From Candidatus Staskawiczbacteria bacterium (GTDB taxonomy: Bacteria; Patescibacteriota; Minisyncoccia; Minisyncoccales; Staskawiczbacteraceae), in NCBI GenBank assembly GCA_026395215.1, contig JAPLZC010000012.1:1-63458 (forward strand): DNA of 63,458 nt, in the 5' to 3' direction. The position numbers and the translations under genes are program-made. The notes beneath the pieces are model-generated. The model did not search any database, was not told the DNA's origin, and saw only the letters and a program-made list of their open reading frames with translations. The first letter of the stretch is position 1. Each line of letters starts with the position of its first letter. Positions 3,001 through 61,985 of the stretch are shown one piece after another.

Positions 3001-6000
3001 TTCTTCGTGTCCAATTATCCAACCCTTATTACTATCTAAAGGTGCTGGAAGTGAAGTTTCACCATACGTTGGACTTTGTGCAACACCATTGTAATATACA
3101 TGAGCCATTCCTGAATAATAAGCTACAGTCATGTGCGTCCAAGTATTTATAGAAGGAGGACTAAAATATACATAACCAAATGATCCACCATTACCCCTAT
3201 TTGTAGCAATCACAAGATAAGTGGGACCCATATATGCTTCTATATCGTCTACATTTCCAGATCCTCTTGTAAAAAGAGAATTATAATCTGACAAAAGGGT
3301 AGGATATACCCAAGTTGCCAAAGTAAAATTATTCGTGAAATCAAGAGCTTCATTTTGAGGTATTGAAACATAATCACTGGTGCCGTTGAAAGTTAGGGCA
3401 CTGGCGATTTTAGAGGTAGTTATAAGATTTGTATTTTGTTGGGCTGTGCCGGTATTTGAACCAATGCTATCTGTAACCGTAGCTGAAGAAGCGCTGTCAT
3501 CATTCATTGTGTAATGAGCCACCAGCCCACTCCCCAAATCCGTCGGAGTCAAATATCGAACAATCACAACTCCAGAACCACCATCTCCACCAGTAGATGA
3601 TGAACCATGATTTCCGCCACCCCCACCACCACCGCCAAGTCCATCTGTTCCATTTGTTCCATTTACTGAAGAATCATTTCCTCCATTTCCTCCGCCACCA
3701 TTTCCACCATTTCCAACCGAACCACTTCTACAACCTCCGCCACCACCACCTGCATAATAAACATCAGAACCACTTATAGTATAATTTAATCCTGCTCCAC
3801 CATTTCCTGCCTGACCTGCCGCACCATTCGCACCAATAGCTCCCGATCCACCACCGCCTCCCGCAAAATAATCTGAAGAGTATACTCCTGCTCCTCCCCC
3901 ATAACCCTGTGCACTTGTTCCACTTCCGCCCGCTCTTTCATATCCACCATTACCGCCTCCACCAGAACCACCATCTCCACCAGCAACATCACCCGAAGAC
4001 CCTCCTCCTCCACCAACAGCCACCAAACTTCCAAAAGAAGAATTTTCTCCATTATTTATTGTTGTACTATAGGTTGAGTTAGTTAACCCTGTTCCACCTG
4101 CTCCAACAACAACATCTGTTGCTCCACTTACAGCATAAGAACTATTGTAAATTAATCCACCCGCTCCTCCACCACCTGCTCCAGCACCTGCTGCTCCACC
4201 CCCTCCACCTCCAGCGACAACCAAAACCTTAACGGAAGTGACGCCGGTTGGCGGGGTGAATGATGTGGTTCCAACTGCTGTGTATGTACAAACAGTATAT
4301 AGAGGATCGTCTGGCGCGGTTGCACAAACCGGGTCTACAATGTAGTCAATTTCAATATTGCCGGAGAATAATAAGTCATAGACGGCGGAGTTAGTGTAAT
4401 TTGGATAAATCTTGTAAGTGTTTTCGCCGTTGATGGCGAATTCACCAATGATATCGTTACCATTTTCGTTAAAGACGGTAATGGTTCCTGTACCTTTGGC
4501 ATAGATGGTCATATCATTTCCGGCGGTTAGGTTGTGTTCAAAGGTTGCTCTTATATAGTGAGTGTCGGGGATGGTCACCCAAACATTGTCTTGGGTAACT
4601 GTTTGCTCATAAACATCATTAACAATTTCTTTGTTGGCATCTAACTCAAATGCTTTTGAAATAAAAATAATTTCAAAGGTTTGTTCAGACAAGTGTGGGA
4701 CTGTCCATTCTACGTAGTCCAGTTTGCCGTTACCGTTGGTGTCGTATGCGTGGAAGGCAACTTCTTTATTGTCTTCATTAGTCCACTTAATTTTGATTTT
4801 GTTTTCTTGGCCAACTTTGAATATTTCTGGGATTTTTGTAGAAGCCAAAACATCAACAATTGGAGCGTTTTCGTTTGAGGCGGTAATGCGGGCTGTGCCT
4901 TCGCCAACAGGAGTAACCAAACCTGTATTGTCTACTACGGCAACTGCGGTGTTGTTTGACGCCCAGTTGACTACTGTCTCCATTGGCTGATTGTTTTGGT
5001 CTAAAGTGTTAGCAACTAATTGCTGAGTGCTTCCGCCAGCAGTTAAATTGGCTGTTAACGGAGTAATATTTATTTTTGTGAGAACCGGTGAAATTATTGC
5101 CGAAGAAATATCAGCCGCTAAAAAATGGGTAAAAGAAGCAATAGCGCGCACAAAACCGGAGATAAGCGAAGCCGCCGCATCAATTGGAGATACTTCTTCA
5201 ACTGGCGCGGGAATTTCTATAGTTGGAGTTTCCTCCACCGGAACAGGTGTCTCTGCCGGAGTCTCTACTGGTGCTGGCGCGACTTCCGGTGCCGGCGTTT
5301 CTTCAGGTGTAGGTGTAACTTCTGGCGCCTCGGGTGTAACATCAGTCGGTGGGATGTCCGACGTCCCACCACTCTCTACCGGTGCCGATGTTTCAGCCGG
5401 TGCTGGCACAACCTCCCGCCCTTCGGGGGCGAGGCTCGCCCCTTCGGGGGCGGCTGGTGCTGTATATATAGAAGGAGAAACTGTAATAATTGCCGGGGCT
5501 GTGCTGGTGACTGCAGGTCCCGAGCCGGGTACTTCATCGGGAGCTGAAACAGTAACAATTTTTCCGGTGTCTGTTTCTTGCTCGGTAATAACTGGAGCAG
5601 GTGTTTCATAGGTAACTTGCACATATGTCTCTTCGACAACCGGAGTCTCTTCGACAACCGGAGTCTCTTCGACAACCGGAGTCTCTTCGACAACCGGAGT
5701 CTCTTCGACAACCGGAGTCTCTTCGACGACCTGTTCAATCAAACCTGCCTGCGCAGTCAGGTCTACAACGGTTTCATCGGGGGTTGACGCTACTATGTTT
5801 TCTACAGCGTCTCCAAGATCGGCAAGCAAAGAACCAAAACCGTCGCTAACGCTGGCAAGAAATGAATTATTCTTTTGTTTTGATGGGACAACTGCTTCGG
5901 CTAATTGCTGTCTTTGGTTAAAAGATAATTGTTCTGTTTTTTTTGTTTGCAAAACTTCCTTCGCCTGTTCTGCGGAAATTTTTATAATTTTAATGTTGCT

Positions 6001-6363: not shown

Positions 6364-6507
6364 TTTTAAAAAATTTAATATAAACTATTATTAAATTATA
6401 GCACCGCCAGAGAACATTGCAATAGTGAATAACTATTAATTACCGCGAACAAAAACTTCGCTAACTATTGTAGCAAATTTTTAAAAAATATGTTATAACT
6501 TCTGTAT

Positions 6508-7509: not shown

Positions 7510-7633
7510 ATATATTAGAGCGAGGCGGTAAGTTTCCAGCGTATTTCTGAGACACGAAGTGCCAGACCTAGTGAGTTTTCCCCGCAACGCGGGGACAACG
7601 AACGTTAGCTGGAAATTTATTGCCGAGCGATGT
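7510..7633. other. GC-rich structured intergenic element between lemA and htpX
   Basis: Outer inverted repeat TTTCCAGC (7533-7540) / GCTGGAAA (7609-7616) encloses a strong hairpin CCCCGC-AAC-GCGGGG (7580-7594). Confidence 0.5.
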
Positions 7634-9196: not shown

Positions 9197-12016
9197 TCAA
9201 GATTTTATATATTGCCCGGTGTATGACTTTTTTACCTTTGCAACATCAGCAGGAGTTCCTTGTGCAACTATTTGGCCTCCCCCGCTTCCACCCTCAGGTC
9301 CAAGGTCAATCAACCAGTCGGCATTTTTAATTAAATCTATATTGTGTTCAATAACCAAAACTGTGTTGCCTTTGTCAACCAAGCCTCCCAAAACAGCAAT
9401 TAATTTTTTAATATCATCAAAATGCAAACCGGTTGTTGGTTCATCTAAAATATATAAAGTTTTGCCGGTGCCTTTTCGGGAAAGTTCTGTTGCCAATTTT
9501 ACCCTTTGCGCTTCCCCACCAGACAAAGAAGTTGCAGATTGCCCCAGTTGTACATAGGAAAGTCCAACCTCTTTTAAAGTTTTCATTTTTTCATAGAGTC
9601 CGGTAATATTCTTAAAAAATTCCAGTGCCTCTTCAACTGTCATATCTAAAACCTCGGCAATGTTTTTGTCTTTGTAAGTAACCTCCAAAACTTCTTTGCT
9701 ATACCTCTTTCCATGGCATTCCTCACATTCTACATAAATGTCCGGCAAGAAATACATTTCTACTTTTTTCTGTCCTTGTCCTTCACACGCTTCACATCTT
9801 CCACCTTTCACGTTAAAACTAAATCTGCCGGCTGAATATCCGCGTACTCTGGCCTCTTTTGTTTTTACAAAGATATCTCTTATCACTGAAAACGCTCCCG
9901 TATATGTTGCCGGATTACTTCTTGGAGTTCTACCAATTGGAGATTGGTCAACCAAAACCACTTTGTTTATATTTTCTATACCGGTTATTTCTTTGTGCTT
10001 TCCAGGTTCGTCTTTTGCGCGGTAAAACTTTTTTAACAAAAACTTTGCCAAAATATCATTTACAAGAGATGATTTCCCAGACCCCGAAACTCCGGTAACA
10101 CAAACAAATTCGCCCAGGGGTATTTGCACATCAATATTCTTAAGATTATGCTCACTCGCGCCAATTACGCTCAAATACTTTTGAGAGCCCTGGGCGCCCC
10201 GTCGAATGACGGGGTGAGTTTTCTTATCAGCCTTCACCGTCTTCCTCCCAGACAAATACTCTCCGGTTAGCGTATTACTTTTGAGAATCTGCTTATATGT
10301 TCCCTCAAAAACAACTTTTCCTCCGTGTTTTCCTGCTCCCGGCCCAATATCAACAATCCAATCAGACGCCTGCATTGTTTGAGGATCGTGTTCTACCACA
10401 ATAACCGTGTTTCCCAAATCCTTTAACTTAACCAATGTATCAATTAACTTGTGCTGATCTCTGGCATGTAATCCAATAGACGGCTCATCTAAAATATATA
10501 AAACGCCAGACAGTTTAGAACCAATTTGAGTTGCTAATCTTATCCTTTGTTCTTCTCCACCAGCCAATGTCCCAGCCTTTCTGGACAAAGTTAAGTAACT
10601 CAGACCAACATCAGTTAAAAACTGTGTCCTATCAATTATTTCTTTTATAATTGGCGCACAAACCTTTGTTTCTCCTGCATTTAGTTTTTCTGGTAATTTT
10701 GTGAATAATTCTTTTACTTTGTCCACCGGCATATCAACAACTTTATCAATAGATAAATCATTTACTGTTACTGCCAAAACTTCTGGCTTTAATCTTTTGC
10801 CGTTGCACTTTGGACAAATTTTAATAACCATATATTGCTCAATTTCTGCTCTTGTCCAGTCTGAATCTGTTTCGTGATATCTTTTTTCCAAGTTTGGAAT
10901 TACTCCCATAAATTCGGCGTCTCCATTTAAAATAATATCAACTATTTTTGCAGGCAAATCTTTTACTTCTTCATCTAAAGAAAACTTATATTTATCAGCT
11001 AACCCAGAAAGAATAGAATAATAATATCCTTGTCTGCCAACTTTGTGGCTGGCGCGAGACCATGGCCAAATAGCACCTTCGGCAATTGTTAATTTTTTAT
11101 TTGGAATAACCAATTCCGGGTCAACTTCTAACTTTTCTCCCAATCCAGTACATTCTGGGCAAGCTCCATAAGGATTATTAAATGAAAATAATCTTGGCTC
11201 TAACTCCGGCAAAGAAATCCCGCACATTTCACACGCGAAGTGTTCGCTGAAAACTAAATCATCTTTGTCTTTTCCGGCCACAATTACAATTCCCTTGCCT
11301 AAATGCAAAGCGGTTTCTAGAGAATCAACCAGTCGCGAACGATCTAAATCTTTTTCAAGAATTAAACGGTCCACAACAACTTCTATGTCGTGTTTTTTTT
11401 GCTTATCTAAATTTGCATTTAGCGATTCTTCAACTGGATAAATAACTCCGTCTATTCTTACTCTAACAAAACCTCCCCTTTGAATTTCTTCTAGAACTCC
11501 ACGATGCTCGCCCTTTTTTTCCCGGATCACCGGACCTAGAATCGTTAATTCGTATGGGCGCGTTCGTAGTTGCGCTTTTCGCATGCTTAAAACTTGGTCA
11601 ACAATTTGGTCAACTGTCTGGCGAGAAATTAACTTTCCACATTTTGGGCAATGCGGTTTACCTATACGGGCGTAAAGCAATCTTAAATAATCATATATTT
11701 CAGTAATAGTACCAACTGTGGACCTTGGGTTATGAGTAGATTTTCTTTGGTCAATTGAAATTGCAGGAGAAATTCCTTCTATTTTATCTACATCGGGTTT
11801 GTCCATTACACCCAAAAATTGTCTGGCGTAAGCTGACAAACTTTCAACATATCTGCGCTGTCCTTCTGCATATAACGTATCAAAAGCTAAAGATGATTTA
11901 CCAGAGCCAGAAAGCCCGGTAATTACAATCAACTTATTTTTAGGCAAATCCAAATCTATATTCTTTAAATTATGGACTCTTGCCCCGCGAATTTTTATGT
12001 AATTATCTATACTCAT
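9197..12016 (-). CDS. uvrA: excinuclease ABC subunit UvrA
   Basis: 939 aa. Two ABC modules ([23 protein letters not shown] signatures) and Cys4 zinc modules. Confidence 0.98.
10197..10214. repeat. GC-rich stem-loop, 'PVIRPGA' family, in frame in uvrA
   Basis: CCCCGTC-GAAT-GACGGGG, an 18-mer identical to 17797-17814 in uvrC. Encodes HPVIRRGA on the minus strand. Confidence 0.85.
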
Positions 12017-12530: not shown

Positions 12531-15500
12531 TTATATTTCAAACTTTTCGTTAATAATCCCCTTCTTTGAGACGTCGATTGTCTGTGAAGTGTGGACTAAA
12601 GAATACGAGCCATCTTTGTTCTTCTTCTCTATCCTAACATAATATTTACCGGGTGGGACAAGGCAATAATACTTGCCGTACTTGTCGGCGGACTTGGCGG
12701 TAATTTGTATGTTAGAATCTGGTGACATTACACGCACTATGGCAAAGGACAACGGGATGCCTGTTGCTTTGTCTGTTATGTTGCCAAAAACTTTTGGTTT
12801 TAGTCCTATGATTCTTAATAATAAAAGGAATAAATATGCAAAAATGGTAATTGTGTTGTATGGGTATGGGGCAAAGATATATGCTAGGGTGGCGACAAAA
12901 AGACCTACGGCGAAGAAGAGATCGGAGAATTTTCTTGTAGCTACGTCCCACTTAGAATAGAACTTCATTATGTTCTTGTCTTTCTTGGCAAACTCATTCC
13001 AGTCAAACTTAATTGGATCTAAGGGAATGTTTTTGGTAATCACCTCGTCTTGAGCCTTTATCTCAATGTTCTCGCCAAAGTACAAGTCTTTGTGGAGTTC
13101 GTCGTGTGTTTTGCCGGCAAGATTCTTTGATGGGAAGGTGTAGTTGGTTTTGTGGGCTTCTATTTGGTAAATGCCAGGACCTACTAAGAATCCAAACCTG
13201 CCATCTACATCTGTTATTGCAGAAGAAATAACCTGACCTTTAAGATCTTTTAGAACAACGTAAGCGGGGTCTAGGGGACGCTTTGTGACAGAGTCGTAAA
13301 CAGCACCCCATGGGACAACTCTCTTTTTCAAACCAAAGGCAGTGAGCAGAAGTCCTAACAACCTTAATGGAATCAAGAACATTTCTGAGAATGAGAACGG
13401 GACGGAAAACCCTGTTGCCATGGCTGCCACTACAATTCCTGTGGTGGAGACAGCCTTAGTTATTACCGAACCTTGAGGTGAGTTGATTGCGTTCTCTAAA
13501 ACTTTTACAGCTTCTTCTACCGGGTTCACAACTGGCGGTACAACTGGCGGTACAACTGGCGGTACAACTGGCGGTACAACTGGCGGTACAACTGGCGGTA
13601 CAACTGGCGGTACAACTGGCGGTACAACTGGCGGTACAACTGGCGGTACAACTACAACTGGCGGTACAACTGGCGGTACAACTGGCGGTACAACTGGCGG
13701 TACAACTGGCGGTACAACTGGCGGTACAACTGGCGGTACAACTGGCGGCAAAGTTGGTTGTGCTAAAAATATTGCTGAAATGGTGTGACCGCTGGAAATA
13801 CTACTAAATGTGTAGGTAGTTATTGCTCCTTCTGAAACATTATCAACTAACACGTCTTCAATTTTATAACCACTATTTGGGGTAATAGTATATATTTGGC
13901 TACTTCCAGAAACCAAAGATATTAAACCACTCGGGCTAATAGAACCATTTGCTCCGGCTGAGGCAGTAATTGTGTAATAAGTATCGCCTCCACTACCGCT
14001 ACCGGTAATAATTCCGGCAATGTTGGCAGACATAGCGTAGGTTGTATTACCGGCTATATCAACTGCCCTGTAACAAACCTTTGAGCCGTTGTCTGAGCCG
14101 TCTGTAAATGTTTGGTCAGCATAAGTGGCAAATGTGAGTGTGCCATCACAGGTTGAGTTTGCAATGTTGCTCATTGTTAGAGTGCCTTCACTAGTTGAAG
14201 CTGTGATTGTTTTGCTTCTAGTCCAAGCGGTGTCTGGGTTGACTATGGTGATAGTTGGCGCGACTGTATCTATTGTTATACTGTCAGAATAAGTTTGGCT
14301 GATATTGCCGGCGGTGTCTTTAAATTGGACATAGAGAGTTTTGGCACCATCGGAACCAAAATTATAGGCATCTGGTGTGTTGACATATGACGCCCAAGCT
14401 ATTTTTATATCAGTACAATTTGCTCCAGCAATTGCAGAATTTCCACAAAGTTGATACTGACTAGCATCATCGGTCGTCAAAGTAATAGCAGGAGAAGTGG
14501 TTGTGCTATAAGTTGCTCCATCGGCTAAAGTGATGGTACCGGTAGGAGGGGTGGTATCAGGACTTGCGCTATTATCTGCAATATACCAAACAGGACTGAT
14601 GCCAGATAAATATGGATAGCCATTATTTAAATCGGTTTGTCCTCCGGATATATCCCAGTTAGCTCCGCCGTACGCGTTAAAAGTATAAAGTTTCTTCATC
14701 TCTGCTGTGGTCTTTCCCACAACTCCTGCTCCTCCCGCGCTTGTTGACTTACCGGAAGTTTGATTGTCCCAAAAAGAATTTGAAACAGTTGTTACACCAC
14801 CTGAAACTAATCCAATTAATCCCCCCTGATTAGAACCAGCTCCACTTACATTTCCAGTTGAATAAGAATTATTTATTATTCCATTTGCACCATTACCAAC
14901 TAATCCTCCACCACTTCCACTACTAACTATTACATTTCCAGTAGCATATGAATTAGATATTATTGTAGTTGTAGCTGACATACCAAAGTTACCAACCAAA
15001 CCTCCTACCATCGTAGTACTATTTACAATTCCAGTAGCATAAGAATTAGATACTGCTCCATAACCATATCCAACCAAACCGCCTACACCTTGAGTCGTAC
15101 CAGTTACATTTTTTGTAGAATATGAATTACTGATTGTACCACCAACTTGATATCCCACTAATCCTCCTAAAGCAACACCTCCTGTTGCAATCCCTGTCGA
15201 ATAACAGTTATCTATCACTCCTGCATCTTGTTCTCCAACTAAACCTCCTTTCCCAAGACTACCTCCTCCAATAAGATTTCCAGTTGCATAAGAGTTAGAG
15301 ATTGTACCACTAACTTGATATCCCACTAATCCTCCAACCTTGCCGTTGCCATTTACGTCTCCAGTTATATAAGCGTTTGTAATTGTTCCAGCATTTTGCT
15401 GTCCAACCAAACCACCCACACGACTAGAACCAGTTACACTAATATTAATTAATCCAACATTAGAAATTGTCCCAGACAAAATGGCGAATAAACCAACGTT

Positions 15501-17390: not shown

Positions 17391-18671
17391 ATGGATAGAT
17401 TTAAGTTACTACCTAAATCAAAGCTCAACGAACTCCCCAAAACAAGCGGCGTTTATTGCTTTGCAGTCGGTGGGATGTCCGACATCCCACCGATTTATAT
17501 CGGCAAGGCCGTGAATATACAAAGCAGGGTTAAAAATCATTTCCAACAGCCTTCTTACCGAGATAATATATTTATAGACAAAGTTGAGAAAATTGGATAT
17601 TTTGAAACTGGCTCAGAAATTGAGGCTTTGCTTTTGGAAGCCAGCTTAATTAAAAAGCACCAACCAAGGTTTAATGTAGTCTGGAAGGACGATAAGAATT
17701 ATTTTTACGTGGCTATCGAGCAAGATAAAAACAAGATTCCGTATGTCTTTATTACACATAAGCCAAAAAAAATCCACCCGGTCATCCGACCGGGTGCCCC
17801 GTCGAATGACGGGGCAAAATCCCAGTATATCGGACCTTTTGTAGAAGGGACAGCTTTAAAAATGACCCTAAAGTTTTTAAGACGCGTATTCCCCTACTAC
17901 ACTTCTGCGAGGCATCCAAAGAGCAACTGCACCTGGTGCCATTTAGGACTTTGTCCCGGACCAAATCACGATTTGAAGGCGTACAAAAAAAATATAAAAA
18001 AACTAGTTTTAATTCTTCAAGGGAAAAGCAAAACTGTTTTAAATTCCCTGAAACGGGAGATGGCTACTTTTTCTGAACAAAACAAGTTTGAGGAGGCCGG
18101 CAAAGTACGCGATGAAATCGCCAGCTTACAACAAGTCATGTCCCACTCCAGCGTCATTACCCAAGCAAAGTCCGGTGGGGTGTCGGACATCCCACCACTC
18201 TCTGGCAGGGTTGAGTGTTATGATGTGTCTAACATACAGGGCAAACAAGCCACCGGTTCTATGATTGCTTTTACAGATGGAAAACCAGATAAGAGCCAAT
18301 ATAGAAAGTTTAAAATAAAAATGGAAAACACGCCCAATGACATAGCTATGTTAAAAGAAATTATAACCAGACGACTTAACCACGTTAAGTGGCCTTATCC
18401 GGAAGTTATGTTGATAGACGGTGGAAAAGCTCAGTTGAATGCGGCAATAGAAATTAAAAATTATTTTAAAAATTTAAAAATTAGAAATTTAAAAATTATC
18501 TCCATTGCCAAGGGCAGACAAGAATTATTTATTGAGGGGTGCAAGGAACCAATACCACTAAAAAATCTTCCACAAGAAACTTATAACCTGATAAAAAATT
18601 TAGATGACGAAGCTCACAGATTTGCCATAACTTACCATAAAAAATTGAGAAGAAAGGAATTGTTGCAATAG
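17391..18671 (+). CDS. uvrC: excinuclease ABC subunit UvrC, short form (no C-terminal HhH2)
   Basis: GIY-YIG (GVYCF...YIGKA.N...R), UVR motif (KFEEAGKVRDEIASLQ), RNase H-like endonuclease domain (YDVSNIQG...YRKFKIK...IDGGKAQL). Ends right after EAHRFAITYHKKLR. Confidence 0.93.
   Translation: MDRFKLLPKSKLNELPKTSGVYCFAVGGMSDIPPIYIGKAVNIQSRVKNHFQQPSYRDNIFIDKVEKIGYFETGSEIEALLLEASLIKKHQPRFNVVWKDDKNYFYVAIEQDKNKIPYVFITHKPKKIHPVIRPGAPSNDGAKSQYIGPFVEGTALKMTLKFLRRVFPYYTSARHPKSNCTWCHLGLCPGPNHDLKAYKKNIKKLVLILQGKSKTVLNSLKREMATFSEQNKFEEAGKVRDEIASLQQVMSHSSVITQAKSGGVSDIPPLSGRVECYDVSNIQGKQATGSMIAFTDGKPDKSQYRKFKIKMENTPNDIAMLKEIITRRLNHVKWPYPEVMLIDGGKAQLNAAIEIKNYFKNLKIRNLKIISIAKGRQELFIEGCKEPIPLKNLPQETYNLIKNLDDEAHRFAITYHKKLRRKELLQ
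17469..17491. repeat. 23-nt perfect palindrome, 'SDIPP' family, in frame in GIY-YIG domain
   Basis: GGTGGGATGTC-C-GACATCCCACC encodes GGMSDIPP. Confidence 0.9.
17777..17815. repeat. tandem pair of GC-rich stem-loops, 'PVIRPGA' family, in frame
   Basis: CCCGGTC-ATCC-GACCGGG followed by GCCCCGTC-GAAT-GACGGGGC encodes HPVIRPGAPSNDGA. Confidence 0.9.
18174..18196. repeat. 23-nt palindrome, 'SDIPP' family, in frame
   Basis: GGTGGGGTGTC-G-GACATCCCACC encodes GGVSDIPP. Flanks are shared with the copy at 5348. Confidence 0.9.
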
Positions 18672-22010: not shown

Positions 22011-22020
22011 CAAAGGGTTC

Positions 22021-22061
22021 GCCCAGTGATGAACACTGGGCGCCAGGTGTTAATCACCTGG
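22021..22061. repeat. tandem pair of GC-rich stem-loops inside a tRNA 3'-end remnant
   Basis: GCCCAGTG-ATGAA-CACTGGGC then CCAGGTG-TTAAT-CACCTGG. Flanks GGGTTC / CAACTCCCTCCCGCGGCA mimic the T arm + acceptor of the adjacent tRNA. Confidence 0.7.
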
Positions 22062-22146
22062 CAACTCCCTCCCGCGGCACACTTCGGTTTAGACCTCAGT
22101 GTAAACTTAAAATAAAAAAATTAATATAAAATATAATTAAAATAAA

Positions 22147-23952
22147 ATGATGATACAAAAAAGACCGGCCTCTGCCGGTAGACCCTCCTACGCCAAGGCT
22201 TCGGACGGGCAAGCAAGACCAGCGCCAATTAGGAGCTGGCATGAAACAACTCCGGTTCCAACAAAAGTTTGGAAGGGAGATAATACACTTAAAATAATCC
22301 CATTAGGAGGATGCGAAGAAGTTGGAAGAAACATGACTGTCTTTGAATATGGACAGGATATTGTAATTCTAGATATGGGGCTTCAATTCCCCGAGGAAGA
22401 TATGCCGGGAATTGATTATGTAATTCCAAACGTGGAATATCTAAAAAGTAAAGAAAAAAATATACGCGGAGTTATTTTCTCCCACGGTCACTTAGACCAC
22501 ATTGGAGCTGCCGCAATTTTGCTAGATAAACTGGGAAATCCACAAATAATTGGGCGTCCTTTAACTTTAGAGATGGTAAAACACAGGGTTGAAGATACTT
22601 TTAAGGGTGCTTCAAAAAAGCTGCGAACTTTATATGTAAAAGATTTACAACAAAAAATTACTTTGGGAGCTTTCACCTTATCCTTTTTCCAGGTTGACCA
22701 CGCAATTATGGACGCAATGGGAGTTATTTTAGAAACCCCTTCGGCAACTGTTATACACCCTGGCGATTGGACAATTGAAAGAGATCCAGTTGGCAGAAAA
22801 GCAATCAACTACACCCAGCTAGCCAACCTAAAAAGACCGACAGTTTTAATGTTAGAGTCTTTGGGGGCTACAAATCAAAAAGAGCAAGTCACCGAGGAAG
22901 AAATGTTGAATAATTTATTCAGTTTAATAACAAATGCTCCAGGCAGAGTTATTATTACCACTTTTTCTTCACAAATTACTAGGATAAGACAGATATTGGA
23001 GTTTGCCACAAAAAATAACAAAAAAGTTGCTCTGGATGGTTTCTCAATGAAACTAAATATAGAGCTGGCAACAAAATTGGGCTACATAAATATTCCAAAG
23101 GGAGTTTTAATAACAACCGACAAAGCCCACACCTACCCTGACAACAAAGTAATTATTGTTTGCACTGGCGGACAAGGCGAAGAAATGGCGGCACTTTCAA
23201 GAATTGTTGCGGGAAACCACAGATTTGTTAAAATTAAAAAAGAAGATACGGTTATTTTTTCTTCTTCAGTAATTCCGGGAAACGAGCGCACAGTCCAGCG
23301 AGTAAAAGACAATCTTTACCGTCAGTCTGACAACGTTTACCATTCAGACATTATAGATGTCCACATTTCTGGCCACAGCAATATAGAAGGAATAAAAGAA
23401 ATGTTAAAAGAAATCAAACCAGACTACTTTATTCCAGTTTACGCCAACCACTACTTCCTTAAGGAAGCAGCTAAAGTTGCCCAAAGCATTGGATTTAGAA
23501 AAGATAAAATATTTGTGCCAGACAACGGTTCTATAATTAAGTTTTCTAGTGGAGCAATACCGGCTGAAGTTCTGAAAGAAAAAGTTCCAACAAATTATGT
23601 TTTCGTTGACGGTTTGGGTGTTGGAGATGTTGGCGAAATTGTTTTGCGCGACCGCCAAGCACTTGCCGAAGATGGAATGTTTGTGATTGTAACAGTCATA
23701 GACAAACGTACCGGCCAAGTTAAAGGCAGCCCAGACATTATTTCCCGCGGATTTGTCTACTTGCGCGAATCAAAAGACTTGTTGTCACAAACCAGAAAGA
23801 AAGTTATAGAAATAGTCTACAAAACCGCCGGCCACGGAGGCGCTGTAAACTGGACCTACGTAAAAGACGAAATCCGCAACAAAATCGGCGACTTCCTAGC
23901 CACCAAAACCAGCCGAAGACCAATGATACTTCCAGTCGTCATCGAAGTCTAA
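22147..23952 (+). CDS. rnj: ribonuclease J (metallo-beta-lactamase/beta-CASP) with ~40-aa GC-rich N-terminal extension
   Basis: LKIIPLGG...HGHLDHIG...beta-CASP and C-terminal domain. 601 aa. Confidence 0.93.
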   Translation: MMIQKRPASAGRPSYAKASDGQARPAPIRSWHETTPVPTKVWKGDNTLKIIPLGGCEEVGRNMTVFEYGQDIVILDMGLQFPEEDMPGIDYVIPNVEYLKSKEKNIRGVIFSHGHLDHIGAAAILLDKLGNPQIIGRPLTLEMVKHRVEDTFKGASKKLRTLYVKDLQQKITLGAFTLSFFQVDHAIMDAMGVILETPSATVIHPGDWTIERDPVGRKAINYTQLANLKRPTVLMLESLGATNQKEQVTEEEMLNNLFSLITNAPGRVIITTFSSQITRIRQILEFATKNNKKVALDGFSMKLNIELATKLGYINIPKGVLITTDKAHTYPDNKVIIVCTGGQGEEMAALSRIVAGNHRFVKIKKEDTVIFSSSVIPGNERTVQRVKDNLYRQSDNVYHSDIIDVHISGHSNIEGIKEMLKEIKPDYFIPVYANHYFLKEAAKVAQSIGFRKDKIFVPDNGSIIKFSSGAIPAEVLKEKVPTNYVFVDGLGVGDVGEIVLRDRQALAEDGMFVIVTVIDKRTGQVKGSPDIISRGFVYLRESKDLLSQTRKKVIEIVYKTAGHGGAVNWTYVKDEIRNKIGDFLATKTSRRPMILPVVIEV

Positions 23953-24008
23953 TTTACAAACAAAAAAGACCCTTTCGTGATCCCCTTTGTTTAGCATCTG
24001 ATGTAAAA

Positions 24009-24272
24009 TTAATTCTTTTTCAGCGCGAGAATATTTTCTAAATAGTCCACCCTGCTTTCTAATTTGTCGAATTCCGATTTATGAACCACGTCAGCAAGTT
24101 GCCCCTTAATCATTGTCAGGCTTTCATCAATTTTGTGAAATTTCTTATTCAAAAATTCCGTTTGTTCTTCAAACTTTTTATTGAGCACTTCTGTCTGCCC
24201 ATCAAAACTATTCTTCATCATCACCGCCAAATCGTCTATTGTTATTTTTTTCCCAGAATTATCTTTTGCCAT
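24009..24272 (-). CDS. hypothetical 87-aa coiled-coil protein (inserted between rnj and a relic rnj tail)
   Basis: Intact ORF with heptad-like charged sequence. No family recognised. Confidence 0.5.
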   Translation of the reverse strand: MAKDNSGKKITIDDLAVMMKNSFDGQTEVLNKKFEEQTEFLNKKFHKIDESLTMIKGQLADVVHKSEFDKLESRVDYLENILALKKN

Positions 24273-24348
24273 GTATTTTAAATTAAGTTATTATATACCC
24301 ATTATAATCTTTCCAAACTTCATGTCAAATGTTAAAATTAAAATTGTA

Positions 24349-24396
24349 AAAACCTCCCGCCGCCCAATGATTCTGCCAGTAGCAATTGAGGTTTAA
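24349..24396 (+). pseudogene. relic duplicate of the last 15 codons + stop of rnj
   Basis: Encodes KTSRRPMILPVAIEV* versus the rnj end KTSRRPMILPVVIEV* (23905..23952). 13 nt differences, all but one codon synonymous. Confidence 0.75.
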
Positions 24397-24420
24397 AATT
24401 ATTATTAAAAAATAAAAAAT

Positions 24421-24726
24421 ATGAACTTTTGTAAAAATTGGCCAAGCTGGTTAAAAGGAGGGATAATTTTATTAGTTACTTTTTTATTAATTACTATAAT
24501 TTTAATTCCCTTCGGATTTATTGGTGGAAAATGCAATGCGGGAACGTTTTTCTGCATGAATATCCCCTATTATTCCTTACCAACCATTTTAGGCGTTTTG
24601 GTTTATAAAAATTTCATTAATTTTAATTCTCCAGCCGTGGCAATGCTTTTAGCATCAATAAATTATTTCTTGATAGGTGCGTTAATCGGCTGGATAATCG
24701 GAAAAATAAAAAATAAAAAGATATAA
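24421..24726 (+). CDS. hypothetical small membrane protein (3 TM)
   Basis: Hydrophobic ORF in a gene-sized gap upstream of trpS. Confidence 0.45.
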   Translation: MNFCKNWPSWLKGGIILLVTFLLITIILIPFGFIGGKCNAGTFFCMNIPYYSLPTILGVLVYKNFINFNSPAVAMLLASINYFLIGALIGWIIGKIKNKKI

Positions 24727-24744
24727 GAATTAAAAATAAAAACT

Positions 24745-34136: not shown

Positions 34137-34710
34137 ACATCCGGAAGTGTACCTTAAGTCTATCTTGGTTGTCTATAAAATCTAGCAATCCAAACCGAAC
34201 ATATTTTTCAAGCTTAAACAATTTTATAAAGTCATCAATTTCTTTTTTACAATCATAAGGGTGTAGGAAAATGCTTTCCTGTAATTCATAAAATCCGCCC
34301 ATTTTAAGCCTATAATTTAAAGCATTCCTACCCTTTCTGCACTCATTTGGTATGTCAAAAGCCACCATCCGCCATTTACCGTCCCATTTTTCTTTCTTGT
34401 TAGCCAACCTCCTAAACCTATAATTAATCGCCCGCAACCTCCCCTTCTCAGTCAATGAAACCAAAACAGAGCCTTCATAGCCCTTCTTTTTCCCTGCCTG
34501 CGCAGGCAGGTCAATTAATTTATACCTTTTAAGATCAACAACAGCCCTCCGTAATTGCTTGCCGGTAAAATTATGTATATCTTTTATAATGTCATTTATA
34601 ATAAAAAACCTCGCGTCACCATGCCCACCAATATGGGCGTGATCGGTCTGGTAATATATACTCCACAATATTTCATCCAAAATCTTATTCATACATTTAT
34701 TATACACCAT
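34135..34710 (-). CDS. wHTH + PaaX-middle/Cas2-fold domain protein (PaaX-like), paralog of 49986..50558
   Basis: WDGKWRMVAFDIPNECRKGRNALNYRLKMGGFYELQESIFLHPYD matches the PaaX/Cas2-like ferredoxin-fold pattern, with an N-terminal winged-helix-like segment. M7 may be the true start. Confidence 0.65.
   Translation of the reverse strand: MVYNKCMNKILDEILWSIYYQTDHAHIGGHGDARFFIINDIIKDIHNFTGKQLRRAVVDLKRYKLIDLPAQAGKKKGYEGSVLVSLTEKGRLRAINYRFRRLANKKEKWDGKWRMVAFDIPNECRKGRNALNYRLKMGGFYELQESIFLHPYDCKKEIDDFIKLFKLEKYVRFGLLDFIDNQDRLKVHFRM
34493..34510. repeat. 18-nt perfect GC-rich palindrome in frame
   Basis: CCTGCCTGC|GCAGGCAGG encodes LPAQAG. Confidence 0.75.
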
Positions 34711-44348: not shown

Positions 44349-46980
<2,632 letters not shown>

Positions 46981-49131: not shown

Positions 49132-49886
49132 AACATTGCCAAAAATGTTCCCATAATTAAAAATGGGCCAAAGGGTATTTCGCTTTTTAATCCTTTTTTC
49201 TGGAAGGCCATTAGTATTAATCCTATTATAGCACCAAAAAAGAATGCCAAAAATAGAGCCACAAAAATATTCGGCATACCCAGCAAAAACCCCATTAAAA
49301 TAGCCAACTTTACGTCCCCAAACCCCATAGCCTTTCCCCGCGATAACAAAAATATAGCTAAAAAGAACCCCGAAGCAATTACCGCCGCAATCAAGAATCC
49401 CGGTATGTCCCTAAAATTTTCGACTAACCTAAAAACAAAAGTAATTATAATTGCGGGAAATAAAACCTTGTCTGGTATAATATAGTGCTTTAAATCGTAC
49501 ACAAAAATTATAATCAAAGAGCTGGCGACATAAAACAGGAAAACGAGGTTTAAACCCCATACCCACCCGGTCATACGACCGGGCGCCCCCGCCAAAATGG
49601 GGGCGAAATTGTAAATTAGCAAAAAAATTAGGCCTGTCGCGAGTTCAACCACAGGATACTGTGCGCTAATTTTTTTGTGGCAGTACCTACATTTACCGCC
49701 CAAAAACACCCAGCTAAAAACCGGAAATAAATCCAACCAACTTAAGTTATGTTTGCAGTGTGGGCAAAAACTCCTTCCCTTCAAACTCTTCTCCTCTTCC
49801 AACCGATAAATAAAACAATTCAAAAAACTCCCAATACAAATCCCCAACACAAACACAAAAACCCCAATTAAATAATTAAAAATCAT
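49083..49886 (-). CDS. pilD: prepilin peptidase PilD (A24 family)
   Basis: Zn-binding CPHCKH...CRYCHKKI, polytopic, GFGDVKL and a second catalytic Asp region. Confidence 0.92.
   Translation of the reverse strand: MIFNYLIGVFVFVLGICIGSFLNCFIYRLEEEKSLKGRSFCPHCKHNLSWLDLFPVFSWVFLGGKCRYCHKKISAQYPVVELATGLIFLLIYNFAPILAGAPGRMTGWVWGLNLVFLFYVASSLIIIFVYDLKHYIIPDKVLFPAIIITFVFRLVENFRDIPGFLIAAVIASGFFLAIFLLSRGKAMGFGDVKLAILMGFLLGMPNIFVALFLAFFFGAIIGLILMAFQKKGLKSEIPFGPFLIMGTFLAMFWGNQIIQWYLNIFKI
49566..49605. repeat. tandem GC-rich stem-loops, 'PVIRPGA' family read in the opposite sense, in frame in pilD
   Basis: CCCGGTC-ATAC-GACCGGG then CGCCCCC-GCCAAAAT-GGGGGCG encodes APILAGAPGRMTGW. Confidence 0.85.
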
Positions 49887-59914: not shown

Positions 59915-60658
59915 GTGGATAAGTCAAAAGACTTTTTATTAGATTTATTGTTCCCAAAGTTCTGTTTAGGATGTAAAAAAGAAGGCACATATTTATGCGA
60001 TGATTGCCGGGGGCTTTTGGATATTTCAGAATTTGGTTATTGCCTATGCGAAGCAAATGGACAGCCCAAGCGCCTTTTGGAAGGCCACGTGGGGAAATGT
60101 AGTATTTGCTCTAGAAAAGAATTGGCGGGACTTTATTTTGCGCTTTCCTACAAGGAGAAGACACTGACAAGAAATTTAATTTATCAATTTAAATACAAAC
60201 CGTATTTAAAAGACCTGGCAAAAACTTTAGCCAGCATAATTGTAGAACATCTTGTGATTTCAGGAAAAAACACAAATGACATTTGGGAAAACAGTGTTTT
60301 GGTTCCCGTACCTTTGGATAGTAAAAAAATAAAAGACCGCGGGTACAATCAATCTGAAGAATTGGCAAAAGAATTGTCTGTAGTTCTAAATGTTCCAGTT
60401 GTTTTAAATGTTCTTGTAAAAATAAAACAAACCGATTCTCAAAAAGGCCTGTCAAAAACCGAAAGAGAGAAAAATCTCCAAGGCGCCTTCGCCATCAAAA
60501 GTTGTTCGACGTCGGACGTCGAACAACTTTCCGGGAAAAAAGTCTTTCTAGTTGATGACGTCTACACCACCGGTTCCACAATGACTGAGTGTGCCAAAAC
60601 CCTTAAAACCGGCGGCGCCAAACAAGTTTGGGGAATTTGCCTGGCCCGCGAAGGGTAA
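59915..60658 (+). CDS. comF: ComF family protein (ComFC-type phosphoribosyltransferase-like)
   Basis: N-terminal Cys4 (CLGC...CDDC) and C-terminal VFLVDDVYTTGST PRTase loop. GTG start. Confidence 0.85.
   Translation: MDKSKDFLLDLLFPKFCLGCKKEGTYLCDDCRGLLDISEFGYCLCEANGQPKRLLEGHVGKCSICSRKELAGLYFALSYKEKTLTRNLIYQFKYKPYLKDLAKTLASIIVEHLVISGKNTNDIWENSVLVPVPLDSKKIKDRGYNQSEELAKELSVVLNVPVVLNVLVKIKQTDSQKGLSKTEREKNLQGAFAIKSCSTSDVEQLSGKKVFLVDDVYTTGSTMTECAKTLKTGGAKQVWGICLAREG
60498..60530. repeat. 33-nt perfect palindrome (16-bp arms) in frame in comF
   Basis: AAAGTTGTTCGACGTC-G-GACGTCGAACAACTTT = 11 codons (KSCSTSDVEQL), immediately before the PRTase loop. Confidence 0.9.
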
Positions 60659-61358: not shown

Positions 61359-61985
61359 TTATCCTTTGTGGAAGCCGAGATCGGCTGGATTTGCTCCGCC
61401 AGAAATTAAAATTATTTTACCTCCTAATTTCTCAAATTCTTTACGCAAAATTTTAACTTCCTGCGCCAAGTTGACAGTTTCCTCTCCAACCTCATATTTA
61501 ATATGCCCTTTTGACCAATATTCTACAACCAACTTACTGTCCCCAAAAACTTTTTTAACATTTTCTTTTATGGCCAACTGCAAAGCATATTTACATGCCA
61601 AAAGTTCCCCATAATTATTTGTTGGCGCGTCGGTCTCCCTTCGGGAGATGTCCCGTAGGGACACAAAATGATGACCCTTTTCATTTAGCTTTCCTTTTGG
61701 TAAAACCTTATGCAATAATTTTTTGCCAGTTTTGTCTGAAACGTTTATTTCTACCCCATTACCTGCTCCCGTACCCGAATCAAAATAGATTCCGTCTTCA
61801 ACTGCCACACTTTTCACAGCATAATCCGCCCCTGCTTTTAACCAGGCGGCGGCTGCTGCCTGGGACTCAAAGCTCTTAAACTTCGCCCCGTTCTTCCCCG
61901 CCACAATCTCCTGACACTCCGGCCAGTTATCTGTAATTCCCTTATCCTTCCCAATTAAATACGCATAATATTTATTTTTTGCCAT
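61359..61985 (-). CDS. rnhA: RNase H1-like protein (N-terminal hybrid-binding/viroplasmin-type domain + RNase H domain)
   Basis: KYYAY..G...GI...W.EC...V.G...A.FKSF......A..WL, then DSGTG...NNYGELLA...GDSKLVV. Confidence 0.8.
   Translation of the reverse strand: MAKNKYYAYLIGKDKGITDNWPECQEIVAGKNGAKFKSFESQAAAAAWLKAGADYAVKSVAVEDGIYFDSGTGAGNGVEINVSDKTGKKLLHKVLPKGKLNEKGHHFVSLRDISRRETDAPTNNYGELLACKYALQLAIKENVKKVFGDSKLVVEYWSKGHIKYEVGEETVNLAQEVKILRKEFEKLGGKIILISGGANPADLGFHKG
61634..61663. repeat. two tandem 15-nt GC-rich hairpins (30 nt = 10 codons) in frame in RNase H
   Basis: TCTCCC-TTC-GGGAGA then TGTCCC-GTA-GGGACA encodes VSLRDISRRE. Confidence 0.85.

What the first reader, a model, noticed from the sequence alone, without database searches (positions are those of the whole stretch)
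17469..18196. uvrC is interrupted in frame by three GC-rich palindromes from two repeat families
In an AT-rich gene, three short GC-rich palindromes keep the frame open. 17469-17491 is GGTGGGATGTC-C-GACATCCCACC, lies inside the GIY-YIG beta-hairpin and encodes GGMSDIPP. 17777-17815 is two tandem stem-loops encoding HPVIRPGAPSNDGA. 18174-18196 encodes GGVSDIPP. The same sequences recur in unrelated genes of this window (uvrA, ligA, pilD, a giant surface protein). This is the behaviour known for Rickettsia palindromic elements (RPEs), selfish palindromes that colonise ORFs. I am not aware of an equivalent formal description for CPR-type genomes. About 20 such sites in 63 kb suggests a genome-wide invasion.
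Basis: partly seen in the sequence, partly recalled or inferred. Interest (0 to 1): 0.85.

Follow-up and report, generated by a model that had tools for sequence, protein, structure and literature searches.

The report
In-frame REP palindromes inside uvrC
Three short GC-rich DNA palindromes really do sit in frame inside the uvrC repair gene of this tiny-genome (Staskawiczbacteria, CPR) bacterium; they are REP-type mobile palindromes, one family of which flanks its own tyrosine-transposase gene (RAYT) in related genomes. The phenomenon is known from Rickettsia and a few other bacteria, and I found no description of it for this group.

Summary
uvrC (17391-18671, +) carries GGTGGGATGTCCGACATCCCACC (17469-17491), a double hairpin (17775-17816) and GGTGGGGTGTCGGACATCCCACC (18174-18196), all in frame.

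- **They are insertions.** 72 of 120 orthologs have nothing extra at site 1 and 47 of 120 nothing extra at site 2. The three segments are loops or linkers in an AlphaFold model.
- **The families recur.** Copies lie in the giant surface protein, uvrA, ligA, pilD and a ComF-like gene. They are read in different frames, so the DNA is conserved, not the peptide.
- **Family A has a transposase.** In two related genomes it flanks, and also sits in frame inside, a Y1/HUH transposase gene. This is a REPtron (RAYT plus its REPs). A paralogous RAYT with a GTAG-tagged REP occupies a conserved slot in relatives; its REP is also found in frame in uvrC of other genomes.
- **Family B is an inverted dimer** of one REP unit. 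No transposase was found for it.
- **The window has no RAYT**, and the conserved slot is empty.

Intragenic REPs, including ones in uvrA and uvrB, and Rickettsia palindromic elements are published. This is a new member of a known kind, not described for CPR in the library I searched. Interest is moderate.

The parts
17391..18671 (+). uvrC host gene (426 aa; GIY-YIG, UVR and UvrC RNase H-like domains; no C-terminal HhH domain)
17467..17493 (.). Family A REP, perfect 13-bp stem (core 17469-17491). Encodes (V)GGMSDIPP(I) in the loop between the GIY and YIG strands. Net +4 aa against 72 of 120 orthologs and against PDB 1YCZ (+3 against 1YD6)
17775..17816 (.). Family B inverted dimer: unit 1 CACCCGGTC-ATCC-GACCGGGTG and unit 2 TGCCCCGTC-GAAT-GACGGGGCA. 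The core of unit 2 is the reverse complement of the core of unit 1 except for one compensated stem pair and one loop base. Encodes HPVIRPGAPSNDGA in a linker with pLDDT below 50
18174..18196 (.). Family A REP with one mismatched pair. Encodes GGVSDIPP in the UVR-to-endonuclease linker (pLDDT below 50)
5348..5370 (.). Family A REP in the giant surface protein (minus-strand open frame 1-6384), read as GGTSDIPP
60501..60527 (.). Family A superfamily copy (core ACGTCGGACGT, different arms, 12-bp perfect stem) in the ComF-like gene 59915-60658, read as CSTSDVEQ
10197..10214 (.). Family B unit in uvrA (9197-12016, minus), read as HPVIRRGA, followed by a decayed partner. About +7 aa against solved UvrA. 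The close relative L039 has the intact dimer at the same site
44574..44613 (.). Family B unit (44596-44613) with a weaker adjacent hairpin, in the HhH-to-BRCT linker of ligA (44349-46394, minus), read as [14 protein letters not shown]. Net only +3 aa against E. coli LigA
49566..49605 (.). Family B unit in the opposite orientation (49566-49583) with a second hairpin (49584-49605), in pilD (49083-49886, minus) between the two Pfam domains, read as APILAGAPGRMTGW
5416..5453 (.). Nested GC palindrome in the low-complexity linker of the giant protein (PEGASLAPEGRE). A related sequence lies in the S6 tail
7579..7595 (.). GC hairpin in the N-terminal region of the M48 peptidase gene
22020..22062 (.). 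Intergenic double hairpin between tRNA-Leu and RNase J. L039 has a family-B-like pair at the same place. One unit has stop codons in 3 of 6 frames
22164..22211 (.). Hairpins in the N-terminal expansion of RNase J (PASAGRPSYAKASDGQ). A 30-nt insert is absent in L001 (89% aa identity) and the whole 33-aa expansion is absent in L039. The first hairpin shows compensated changes in L024 and L001
26719..26737 (.). GC hairpin in phosphoglucomutase (PASPAGG). A 7-aa segment is absent in L001 and L002
27671..27710 (.). Two GC hairpins in the C-terminal tail of ribosomal protein S6
28181..28219 (.). Two GC hairpins in the disordered tail of SSB
34493..34510 (.). CCTGCCTGCGCAGGCAGG in the PaaX-like gene. 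The same 18-mer occurs in L029, L069 and L071
46061..46077 (.). GC hairpin in the N-terminal part of ligA (NPPAGGQ)
61842..61863 (.). GC hairpin in the RNase H1 gene, after the N-terminal Cauli_VI domain (SQAAAAAW)
23953..24744 (.). The slot between RNase J and TrpS where four related genomes carry the RAYT-1 REPtron. The window has no Y1 transposase here, only two small ORFs and a duplicated RNase J 3' end

Best explanation
The three segments are REP-type elements: short palindromes mobilised as single-stranded hairpins by HUH/Y1 tyrosine transposases of the RAYT kind. They landed in uvrC at places where extra residues are tolerated, and they are translated as part of the protein.

Family A (core GTC-S-GAC, arms GGTGGGRY) is the cognate REP of a RAYT paralog, here called RAYT-2. 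In two related Staskawiczbacteria genomes family A flanks that gene on both sides and sits in frame inside it. Family B is an inverted dimer of one REP unit and moves as a unit; its transposase is unidentified.

These genomes are about 89% coding, and the elements have no stop codon in 5-6 of 6 frames. Most surviving copies therefore lie in genes, filtered by selection to loops, linkers and tails and to lengths that keep the frame.

Shown: the palindromes, their repetition, their absence from most orthologs, the frame-independence of their conservation, and the REPtron architecture in relatives. Inferred: that RAYT-2 actually moved the copies in this window, that the copies are translated, and whether the system is still active in this genome, which has no RAYT in 63 kb and an empty RAYT-1 slot.
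For: - **Repetition.** Family A and B motifs recur in the window, with 0 matches in 100 shuffles for each motif. There are 13 strict GC hairpin sites against 1.3 expected.
- **Insertion status.** The GVY-to-YIGKA spacer is 9 aa in 72 of 120 orthologs and 13 aa here. The ITH-to-IGPF spacer is 8-9 aa in 47 of 120 and 23 aa here. RNase J and PGM inserts are absent in relatives that are 89% (L001 RNase J) and 71% (L001 PGM) identical at the protein level. uvrA has +7 aa against PDB 9gxk.
- **Loop placement.** In the AF2 model, site 1 lies between strands 20-25 and 36-40. Sites 2 and 3 are coil with pLDDT below 50. The other hosts carry their copies between Pfam domains or in tails.
- **DNA-level conservation.** Family A is read as GG[MVT]SD[IVT]PP or as VG[RC][RP]T[SP]H. 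Family B is read as HPVIRPGA, APSNDGA or APGRMTGW.
- **REPtrons.** RAYT-2 at L005:6582-7313 has family A at 6546, 7088 (in frame) and 7364. L008 has the same layout. L100 carries variant REPs: one downstream of the gene and one in frame inside it, with none seen upstream. RAYT-1 in L001, L022, L023 and L024 is syntenic and is flanked by a genome-specific GCGGAG-type REP, GTAG-tagged, with an internal copy. That REP lies in frame in uvrC site 2 of L044 and L046, and a decayed copy lies at site 1 of L036. L046 also carries the REPtron about 5 kb away.
- **Transposase identity.** Both proteins pass the Pfam Y1_Tnp cut-off. The only NCBIfam hit is REP_Tyr_transpos. The best profile hit in the PDB is E. 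coli TnpA_REP 4ER8, aligned over the HUH and YIxxNP motifs.
- **Mobility of the B dimer.** It sits at uvrC site 2 in the window, L002 and L075, but at site 3 in L004 and in uvrA in L039.
- **Precedent.** Intragenic REPs, many in uvrA/uvrB and other repair genes, are published (PMC3733652).
Against: - There is no Y1 transposase gene in the 63-kb window, and the slot that holds RAYT-1 in relatives is empty. The window's copies may be fossils.
- No transposase was found next to any family B copy in about 0.9 Mb of related DNA.
- Family A is low-copy: 1-8 strict copies per representative genome.
- The net length gains (+4 aa at site 1, +3 aa in ligA) do not fit a clean insertion of a 23-42-nt unit.
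- No presence/absence polymorphism was seen between near-identical strains, although only a few pairs were available.
- The NCBIfam score (52) is below the family cut-off (80), and the PDB match is weak (E 0.018).
- Translation of the segments is not shown.
Confidence: 0.75

Rival explanations
1. The palindromes are made and kept perfect locally by replication template switching (quasi-palindrome correction, hairpin-templated repair) in AT-rich, repair-poor genomes, without any transposase. Shared sequences would reflect convergence on stable hairpins.
For: - The outer arms beyond the family core are locus-specific yet complementary, for example AAAGTC..GACTTT in L011 and AAGCC..GGCTT in L014.
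- Orthologous hairpins show compensated changes, in the RNase J N-terminus and in family B in the window against L002.
- Net length gains are smaller than the elements.
- Perfect stems of up to 23 bp with unrelated sequences sit at uvrC site 3.
Against: - Identical 23-mers occur at non-orthologous sites in several genomes, in different genes and in different frames.
- The same sequences bracket transposase genes on both sides.
- The same B dimer is found at different sites of the same gene in different genomes.
- Local symmetrisation may still act on copies after they have inserted.
Confidence: 0.1
2. The hairpins are selected cis-acting signals, such as DNA uptake sequences, mRNA stability or pause elements, or protein-binding sites. 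They happen to lie in genes because there is little intergenic space.
For: - Many hosts are genome-maintenance or competence genes (uvrA, uvrC, ligA, ssb, RNase H, comF-like, pilD). This resembles the bias reported for intragenic REPs (PMC3733652) and, from my own knowledge, for Neisseria and Haemophilus uptake sequences.
- All seven RAYT genes for which I have DNA keep a REP in the same internal loop, which hints at some function.
- Some intergenic copies sit where terminators would be.
Against: - There are many unrelated families, each low-copy.
- Elements are present or absent among close orthologs with no conserved position other than tolerant loops.
- Uptake sequences are a single motif at roughly one per kb, which is not seen here.
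- No Rfam family matches beyond the two tRNAs.
Confidence: 0.07
3. The encoded peptides (GGMSDIPP, HPVIRPGA...) are selected protein motifs, and the DNA palindromy is a by-product.
For: The frame is always kept, and three copies in the window give nearly the same peptide, GG[MVT]SDIPP.
Against: - The same DNA is translated in other frames into unrelated peptides: VGRPTSH for family A, and APGRMTGW or APSNDGA for family B.
- A phase-0 palindrome gives the same peptide in both orientations by construction.
- The segments are low-confidence coil and are absent from most orthologs.
Confidence: 0.03
4. The palindromes are assembly or amplification artefacts of metagenomic data.
For: Palindromes can arise from chimeric reads. 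RAYT contigs are often very short, as expected when repeats break assemblies.
Against: - The same elements occur at the same sites in independent assemblies from different samples. L002 equals L003 and L030 at 100% identity. L001 shares site 1 with the window.
- The reading frames are intact.
- The elements are present in NCBI, JGI and ENA records.
Confidence: 0.01

Closest known systems
REP elements with RAYT transposases (REPtrons) of Proteobacteria, including the intragenic REPs catalogued by Di Nocera et al. 2013 (PMC3733652)
   Same: - Short GC-rich stem-loops repeated in the genome.
- A single-copy Y1/HUH transposase gene bracketed by its own REPs.
- Inverted dimers of a REP unit.
- A GTAG tag on the RAYT-1 REP.
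- REPs found inside ORFs, notably uvrA and uvrB and other repair genes, in linkers and loops.
   Different: - The host is in Patescibacteria (CPR).
- Most copies (66%) are intragenic rather than extragenic.
- The families are small.
- Families A and B lack GTAG. Family A has an AGTC flank on at least one side in most copies.
- The RAYT proteins are about 240 aa with a C-terminal extension and score below NCBIfam's RAYT cut-off.
- A REP lies in frame inside the RAYT gene itself.
Rickettsia palindromic elements (RPE-1 to RPE-8; Ogata et al. 2000, 2002, from my own knowledge; RPE-4 and RPE-6 were re-filed as CGTC REPs in PMC3733652)
   Same: - Palindromic repeats inserted in frame in unrelated housekeeping genes of a small, AT-rich genome.
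- Placed at sites that do not disrupt the fold.
- No dedicated transposase is known for some families, as for family B here.
   Different: - RPE-1 is about 100-150 bp, while these are 18-42 nt.
- The phylum differs. Sequence similarity to RPEs was not tested.
- One family here does have a cognate transposase.
18-mer clustered palindromic coding repeats of Methanocaldococcus jannaschii (Suyama, Lathe and Bork 2005, from my own knowledge), mitochondrial GC clusters or double-hairpin elements of fungi (from my own knowledge), and coding palindromes in Nematomorpha mitochondria (PMC6649704, abstract seen)
   Same: Very short GC-rich palindromes or double hairpins that spread within AT-rich compact genomes and are tolerated in frame within coding sequence.
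   Different: These are archaeal or organellar systems. No RAYT-type gene is linked to them. The mechanisms are unknown or different.
IS200/IS605 insertion sequences
   Same: The Y1/HUH transposase fold (Pfam PF01797) and hairpin-recognising single-strand transposition chemistry, which is the presumed mechanism here.
   Different: - IS elements carry distinct left and right subterminal hairpins and move together with their transposase gene in several copies.
- Here the gene is single-copy and syntenic across genomes that are 60-85% identical, and only the hairpins are dispersed.

Membership tests
REP/RAYT system (REPtron) | Short (about 20-40 nt) imperfect palindromes present in several dispersed copies in one genome | tested here: met
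   The window holds family A three times plus one variant, and family B four times. Representative genomes hold 1-8 family A copies.
REP/RAYT system (REPtron) | A Y1/HUH transposase gene flanked by copies of the same REP | tested here: met
   Met in related genomes. Family A flanks RAYT-2 in L005 and L008. A GCGGAG-type REP flanks RAYT-1 in inverted orientation in L001, L022, L023 and L024. Not met inside the window itself, where tblastn finds no Y1_Tnp. Not found for family B.
REP/RAYT system (REPtron) | The transposase has the HUH motif and the catalytic Tyr motif, and is closer to TnpA_REP than to IS200/IS605 TnpA | tested here: inconclusive
   MPNH[IL]HL and Y[IV]HAN are conserved. Pfam Y1_Tnp scores are above the cut-off. 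The only NCBIfam hit is REP_Tyr_transpos, but at 52 bits against a cut-off of 80. The profile's best PDB hit is 4ER8 at E 0.018, with ISDra2 TnpA next at E 0.06.
REP/RAYT system (REPtron) | The RAYT gene is single-copy and vertically inherited rather than multi-copy like an IS | tested here: met
   RAYT-1 lies between RNase J and TrpS in four genomes. Its homologs are 60-85% identical, in the same range as UvrC.
REP/RAYT system (REPtron) | Conserved GTAG tetranucleotide at one end of the REP | tested here: not met
   Not met for the families in the window. Family A has an AGTC/GACT flank in most copies, and family B has none. It is met for the RAYT-1 REP (GTAGCGGAG...CTCCGCTAC in L001, L024 and L044).
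REP/RAYT system (REPtron) | Predominantly extragenic location | tested here: not met
   127 of 193 GC hairpins (66%) lie in predicted genes in 789 kb. Coding sequence is 89% of the DNA, so per base the hairpins are still enriched between genes.
Rickettsia palindromic elements (RPE) | In-frame insertion of a repeated palindrome in unrelated protein genes at structurally tolerant sites | tested here: met
Rickettsia palindromic elements (RPE) | Sequence homology to an RPE family and the typical size (RPE-1 about 100-150 bp) | not tested
   The elements here are 18-42 nt. No RPE sequences were compared.
CGTC-tagged REPs (PMC3733652) | Terminal CGTC tag, 8-9-bp stem beginning with A/T pairs, 4-5-nt loop, CCA tail | tested here: not met
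   Family B has 9-bp stems and 4-nt loops. However, its CGTC/GGTC lies next to the loop rather than at the end, the stems begin with G/C pairs, and there is no CCA tail.
DNA uptake sequences (DUS/USS) | One conserved 9-12-mer at roughly one copy per kb in both orientations | tested here: not met
   There are many different families. Family A has 4 copies in 63 kb and 1-8 per genome.
MITE | Terminal inverted repeats of a parent IS, target-site duplication, and a length of about 100-400 bp | tested here: not met
   The units are whole hairpins of 18-27 nt. No direct duplications are seen at their flanks.

The most novel reading that the evidence does not exclude
In Staskawiczbacteria, and perhaps in CPR bacteria more widely, RAYT-driven REPs may be a continuing major source of lineage-specific protein loops. 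The same few tolerant sites are hit again and again: 40-60% of 120 UvrC orthologs carry unrelated inserts at sites 1 and 2. The REP copy kept in frame inside every RAYT gene examined may be a self-regulatory target of the transposase, not just another passenger.
Probability: 0.2. Interest if true: 0.7.

Novelty: new member of a known kind. Interest (0 to 1): 0.5.

Why it matters
- **It explains odd protein segments.** Part of the unexplained extra segments in CPR proteins can be read as mobile DNA rather than adaptive features. These segments lower HMM scores: the GIY-YIG match here starts only after the insert. They may also break assemblies: RAYT contigs are often 1-2 kb.
- **It widens the range of REP/RAYT systems.** They now reach a phylum with genomes of about 1 Mb and almost no intergenic space. 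That is a natural test of what happens to 'extragenic' palindromes when there is nowhere extragenic to go.
- **It offers tractable material.** There are two paralogous RAYTs with distinct cognate hairpins, and many independent insertions at three known loops of one enzyme.

Tried and rejected
- **Rfam.** The gathering-threshold scan of the window gave only the two tRNAs, so no known RNA family covers the hairpins.
- **Transposase in the window.** tblastn with the L001 protein found nothing.
- **Transposase next to family B.** None was found in about 0.9 Mb of related loci.
- **Recent mobility.** Comparison of near-identical strain pairs showed no palindrome presence/absence differences. The only indels were in low-complexity repeats.
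- **Viral contigs.** Family A has 0 matches. The family B unit has 6 single matches, which I did not follow up and which may be chance.
- **Matches outside the clade.** Family A matches in Acidimicrobiia, Actinotalea and Saprospiraceae records are single copies in GC-rich or unrelated DNA. I set them aside as chance or unrelated.
- **The + strand ORFs 5027-5611 and 5125-5547** looked like hosts at first. I rejected them in favour of the 2128-aa minus-strand gene.
- **The pair-count on alignment A5** is circular for 'percent paired', because the sequences were chosen for palindromy. I use only the invariant core against variable arms, and the count of 36 palindrome centres among 86 GTCSGAC sites.
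- **Literature.** Searches for a CPR description found none. Subscription journals are not covered.
Full report
**1. Observation**

The sequence at the stated coordinates is as described.
- 17469-17491 is GGTGGGATGTCCGACATCCCACC. The perfect palindrome runs from 17467 to 17493.
- 17775-17796 and 17795-17816 are two adjacent hairpins, each with a 9-bp stem and a 4-nt loop.
- 18174-18196 is GGTGGGGTGTCGGACATCCCACC, with one mismatched pair.

All three lie in frame in ORF 17391-18671. This ORF is UvrC by Pfam (GIY-YIG, UVR, UvrC_RNaseH_dom) and by PDB matches. The window is 35-47% G+C, while the elements are 56-84% G+C.

Searches with up to 3 mismatches find further copies, and none in 100 shuffles for each motif:
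- family A at 5348;
- family B units at 10197, 44596 and 49566.

A strict hairpin count (perfect stem of at least 7 bp with at least 5 G/C) gives 13 sites against 1.3 +/- 1.2 in 200 dinucleotide shuffles.

**2. Organism**

The best UvrC homologs are named Candidatus Staskawiczbacteria (Patescibacteria/CPR) and are 56-70% identical.

**3. Are the segments insertions?**

I aligned 120 orthologs (A1).
- *Site 1.* The spacer between GVY and YIGKA is 9 aa in 72 of 120 and 13 aa here.
- *Site 2.* The spacer between ITH and IGPF is 8-9 aa in 47 of 120 and 23 aa here.
- *Site 3.* The UVR-to-endonuclease linker varies in all orthologs. The short forms ending ...LSGRVECYD lack the palindrome.

Against solved GIY-YIG domains the window has 3-4 extra residues between the two motif strands. 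An AlphaFold2 model (mean pLDDT 75.7) puts residues 26-35 in the loop between strands 20-25 and 36-40. It leaves 127-142 and 252-265 as coil with pLDDT below 50.

The other hosts behave the same way:
- The uvrA copy adds about 7 residues relative to solved UvrA.
- The PGM hairpin is a 7-aa segment absent in L001 and L002.
- The N-terminal hairpins of RNase J lie in a 30-nt segment absent in L001, whose RNase J is 89% identical. The whole 33-aa expansion is absent in L039.
- The ligA, pilD, S6 and SSB copies lie between Pfam domains or in tails.

Two caveats apply. The net gain at site 1 is only 4 aa, and in the ligA linker only 3 aa, although the palindromes span 8-14 codons. The events were therefore not clean insertions, or they were followed by trimming.

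**4. Conservation is in the DNA, not the peptide**

- Family A is read as GG[MVT]SD[IVT]PP in some genes and as VG[RC][RP]T[SP]H in others.
- Family B is read as HPVIRPGA in uvrC, uvrA and ligA, as APGRMTGW in pilD, and as APSNDGA for the second unit in uvrC.
- Family A has no stop codon in any of the six frames, and family B has none in five. An intergenic hairpin at 22042-22062 has stops in three frames.

This fits a filter in which only stop-free, frame-keeping copies survive in genes.

**5. Link to transposases**

*RAYT-1.* L001 carries the closest UvrC relative and is syntenic with window 17.4-28.4 kb. It has a 240-aa Y1_Tnp gene between RNase J and TrpS. The same gene sits in the same slot in L022, L023 and L024. 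In each genome three copies of one palindrome are present: upstream of the gene, downstream in inverted orientation, and in frame inside the gene. The palindrome differs between genomes:
- GCGGAGA-CCCGT-TCTCCGC in L001 and L024;
- GCGGAAG-CCCGT-CTTCCGC in L022;
- GCGGAGTCC-C-GGACTCCGC in L023.

Several copies carry GTAG...CTAC extensions. This is the published REPtron layout (PMC3733652). The same REP lies in frame in uvrC site 2 of L044 and L046, where AAAAGTAGCGGAAGCCCGTCTTCCGCTACTTTT encodes KSSGSPSSATF. A decayed copy lies in site 1 of L036. L046 also holds the REPtron itself about 5 kb away.

*RAYT-2.* A tblastn of this protein against all fetched loci found a paralog about 50% identical, in L005, L008 and L100.
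- In L005 the three family A matches from the genome scan are exactly upstream (7364-7386), inside in frame (7088-7110, ESVGRPTSHLSE) and downstream (6546-6568) of this gene.
- L008 has the same layout.
- L100 has variant arms on the same core, downstream and inside the gene, with none seen upstream.

Family A is therefore the cognate REP of a second RAYT.

*Identity of the proteins.* Both proteins pass Pfam's Y1_Tnp cut-off. The only NCBIfam hit is REP_Tyr_transpos, below its cut-off. A profile of 19 members finds E. coli TnpA_REP (4ER8) as its best PDB match, weakly (E 0.018), aligned over the HUH and YIxxNP motifs.

**6. Family A as a superfamily**

In 871 kb of related DNA, 36 of the 86 occurrences of GTCSGAC are the centre of a palindrome with at least 8 of 10 flanking pairs. 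The core is invariant and all ten arm positions vary with both-sided changes. The percent-paired figure is circular, because the sequences were selected for palindromy. The window has a fourth member, at 60501-60527 in a ComF-like gene. Many uvrC site 3 linkers of other genomes carry such core-centred palindromes with quite different arms, and perfect palindromes built on other centres reach 23 bp.

**7. Family B**

The core of unit 2 is the reverse complement of the core of unit 1, apart from one compensated stem pair and one loop base. The uvrC site 2 element is therefore an inverted dimer, the usual REP arrangement. The dimer, or a subfamily of it (CCCTGTC-ATAC-GACAGGG), occurs at:
- uvrC site 2 in L002 and L075;
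- uvrC site 3 in L004;
- uvrA in L039, and upstream of RNase J in L039.

The window's uvrA copy is one unit followed by a decayed partner at the site where L039, whose uvrA is 86% identical, has the intact dimer. I found no transposase next to any family B copy.

**8. Hot spots and density**

At the three uvrC sites the orthologs carry many unrelated inserts:
- other GC palindromes, encoding KPxGEGGF, SFAKASEGQ, SLRGxxATKQS...RNDE or LDSRLRGND;
- heptamer tandem repeats, (AAACCCT)n and (AAATTTC)n.

In 789 kb of de-replicated related DNA there are 193 perfect GC hairpins, or 2.45 per 10 kb, and 66% lie in predicted genes. Coding sequence makes up 89% of the DNA, so per base the hairpins remain enriched between genes. 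At least 25 of the 66 intergenic ones look like terminators. The window has 15 hairpins, 13 of them in genes, which is typical for the clade.

**9. State of the system in this genome**

The window has no Y1 transposase. The RAYT-1 slot (23953-24744) instead holds two small ORFs and a diverged duplicate of the last 48 nt of RNase J. No GCGGAG-type REP occurs in the window. Whether a RAYT-2 lies elsewhere in the genome cannot be told from the data I could reach. Near-identical strain pairs showed no palindrome polymorphism.

**10. Mechanism**

*Shown:*
- repeated palindromes that are absent from most orthologs;
- conservation that is independent of reading frame;
- placement in loops and linkers;
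- REPtron architecture for family A and for the GCGGAG family in relatives;
- the same dimer at different sites in different genomes.

*Inferred from what is established for TnpA_REP and IS200/IS605 enzymes (my own knowledge; Ton-Hoang et al. 2012; Bertels and Rainey 2011):*
- The RAYT binds the hairpin on single-stranded DNA at the replication fork, cleaves beside it and moves it.
- Selection then keeps only copies that preserve the frame at tolerant positions.

Local hairpin-templated repair may add to this. It would account for the complementary, locus-specific outer arms and for the compensated changes.

**11. Comparison with what is known**

Di Nocera et al. 2013 (PMC3733652) describe GTAG and CGTC REPs and REPtrons. 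They also report REPs inside ORFs, many in replication and repair genes including uvrA and uvrB, and they re-file RPE-4 and RPE-6 as CGTC REPs. The finding is therefore a further case of a described phenomenon in a phylum where I found no description.

Features that go beyond the published picture:
- most copies are intragenic;
- there are two paralogous RAYTs with distinct REPs;
- a REP lies inside each RAYT gene examined;
- the same protein loops are hit repeatedly.

**12. Verdict**

It is best filed as REP/RAYT-type palindromes, a new member of a known kind, of moderate interest.

Noticed in passing
window 23953-24396: Directly after the RNase J stop there is a cassette of about 400 nt with an 87-aa minus-strand ORF (24009-24272, no Pfam hit). 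It is followed by a diverged duplicate of the last 48 nt of RNase J (24349-24396, KTSRRPMILPVAIEV*). This looks like an insertion that brought, or displaced, the gene's 3' end, and it occupies the slot where relatives carry RAYT-1.
   Followed up: partly
L001:7497-7515, L022:3200-3218, L023:3192-3208, L024:3199-3219, L005:7088-7110, L008:4045-4067, L100:5735-5753: Every RAYT gene for which I had DNA carries a REP in frame inside its own ORF, in the same loop ahead of the HUH motif. In six of the seven its arms match the REPs flanking that gene. This could be a permissive loop or a self-regulatory site.
   Followed up: partly
uvrC sites 1 and 2 in L004, L027, L029, L042, L046, L054 and others: Some orthologs carry heptamer tandem repeats at the same hot spots instead of palindromes: (AAACCCT)n encoding NPKPYALNP, and (AAATTTC)n encoding NFKFQISNFK. 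Three heptamers keep the frame.
   Followed up: no
window 1-6384 (minus strand): A 2128-aa open frame runs off the left end of the window. It encodes a giant surface protein (Gly_rich_2, Laminin_G_3, Big_2). The + strand ORFs 5027-5611 and 5125-5547 in its GC-rich low-complexity linker are spurious.
   Followed up: yes
window 13527-13748: A long (PPVV)n run of 74 residues lies in the 1598-aa surface protein (12531-17327, minus).
   Followed up: no
L039:3629-3670 and L039:11114-12820: L039 is a close relative: its uvrA is 86% identical. It keeps the intact family B dimer in uvrA where the window has one unit plus a decayed partner. Its RNase J lacks the window's 33-aa N-terminal expansion.
   Followed up: yes
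L002:14631-15254: A LAGLIDADG-like ORF lies between the GPI and RNase J genes in this relative. It is absent from the window.
   Followed up: no
window 29000-63458: Almost all genes from about 29 kb to the right end are on the minus strand, and cumulative GC skew falls steadily across the window. This is consistent with a single replichore.
   Followed up: no
L029:uvrC site 3; L006:284-330; L016:5239-5289: Family A copies sometimes occur as adjacent inverted or tandem pairs that could fold into longer REPIN-like hairpins (REPIN: a pair of inverted REPs that moves as one unit). They are translated in two different phases in a row, for example GCPTPHHAGGVSDTPP.
   Followed up: no
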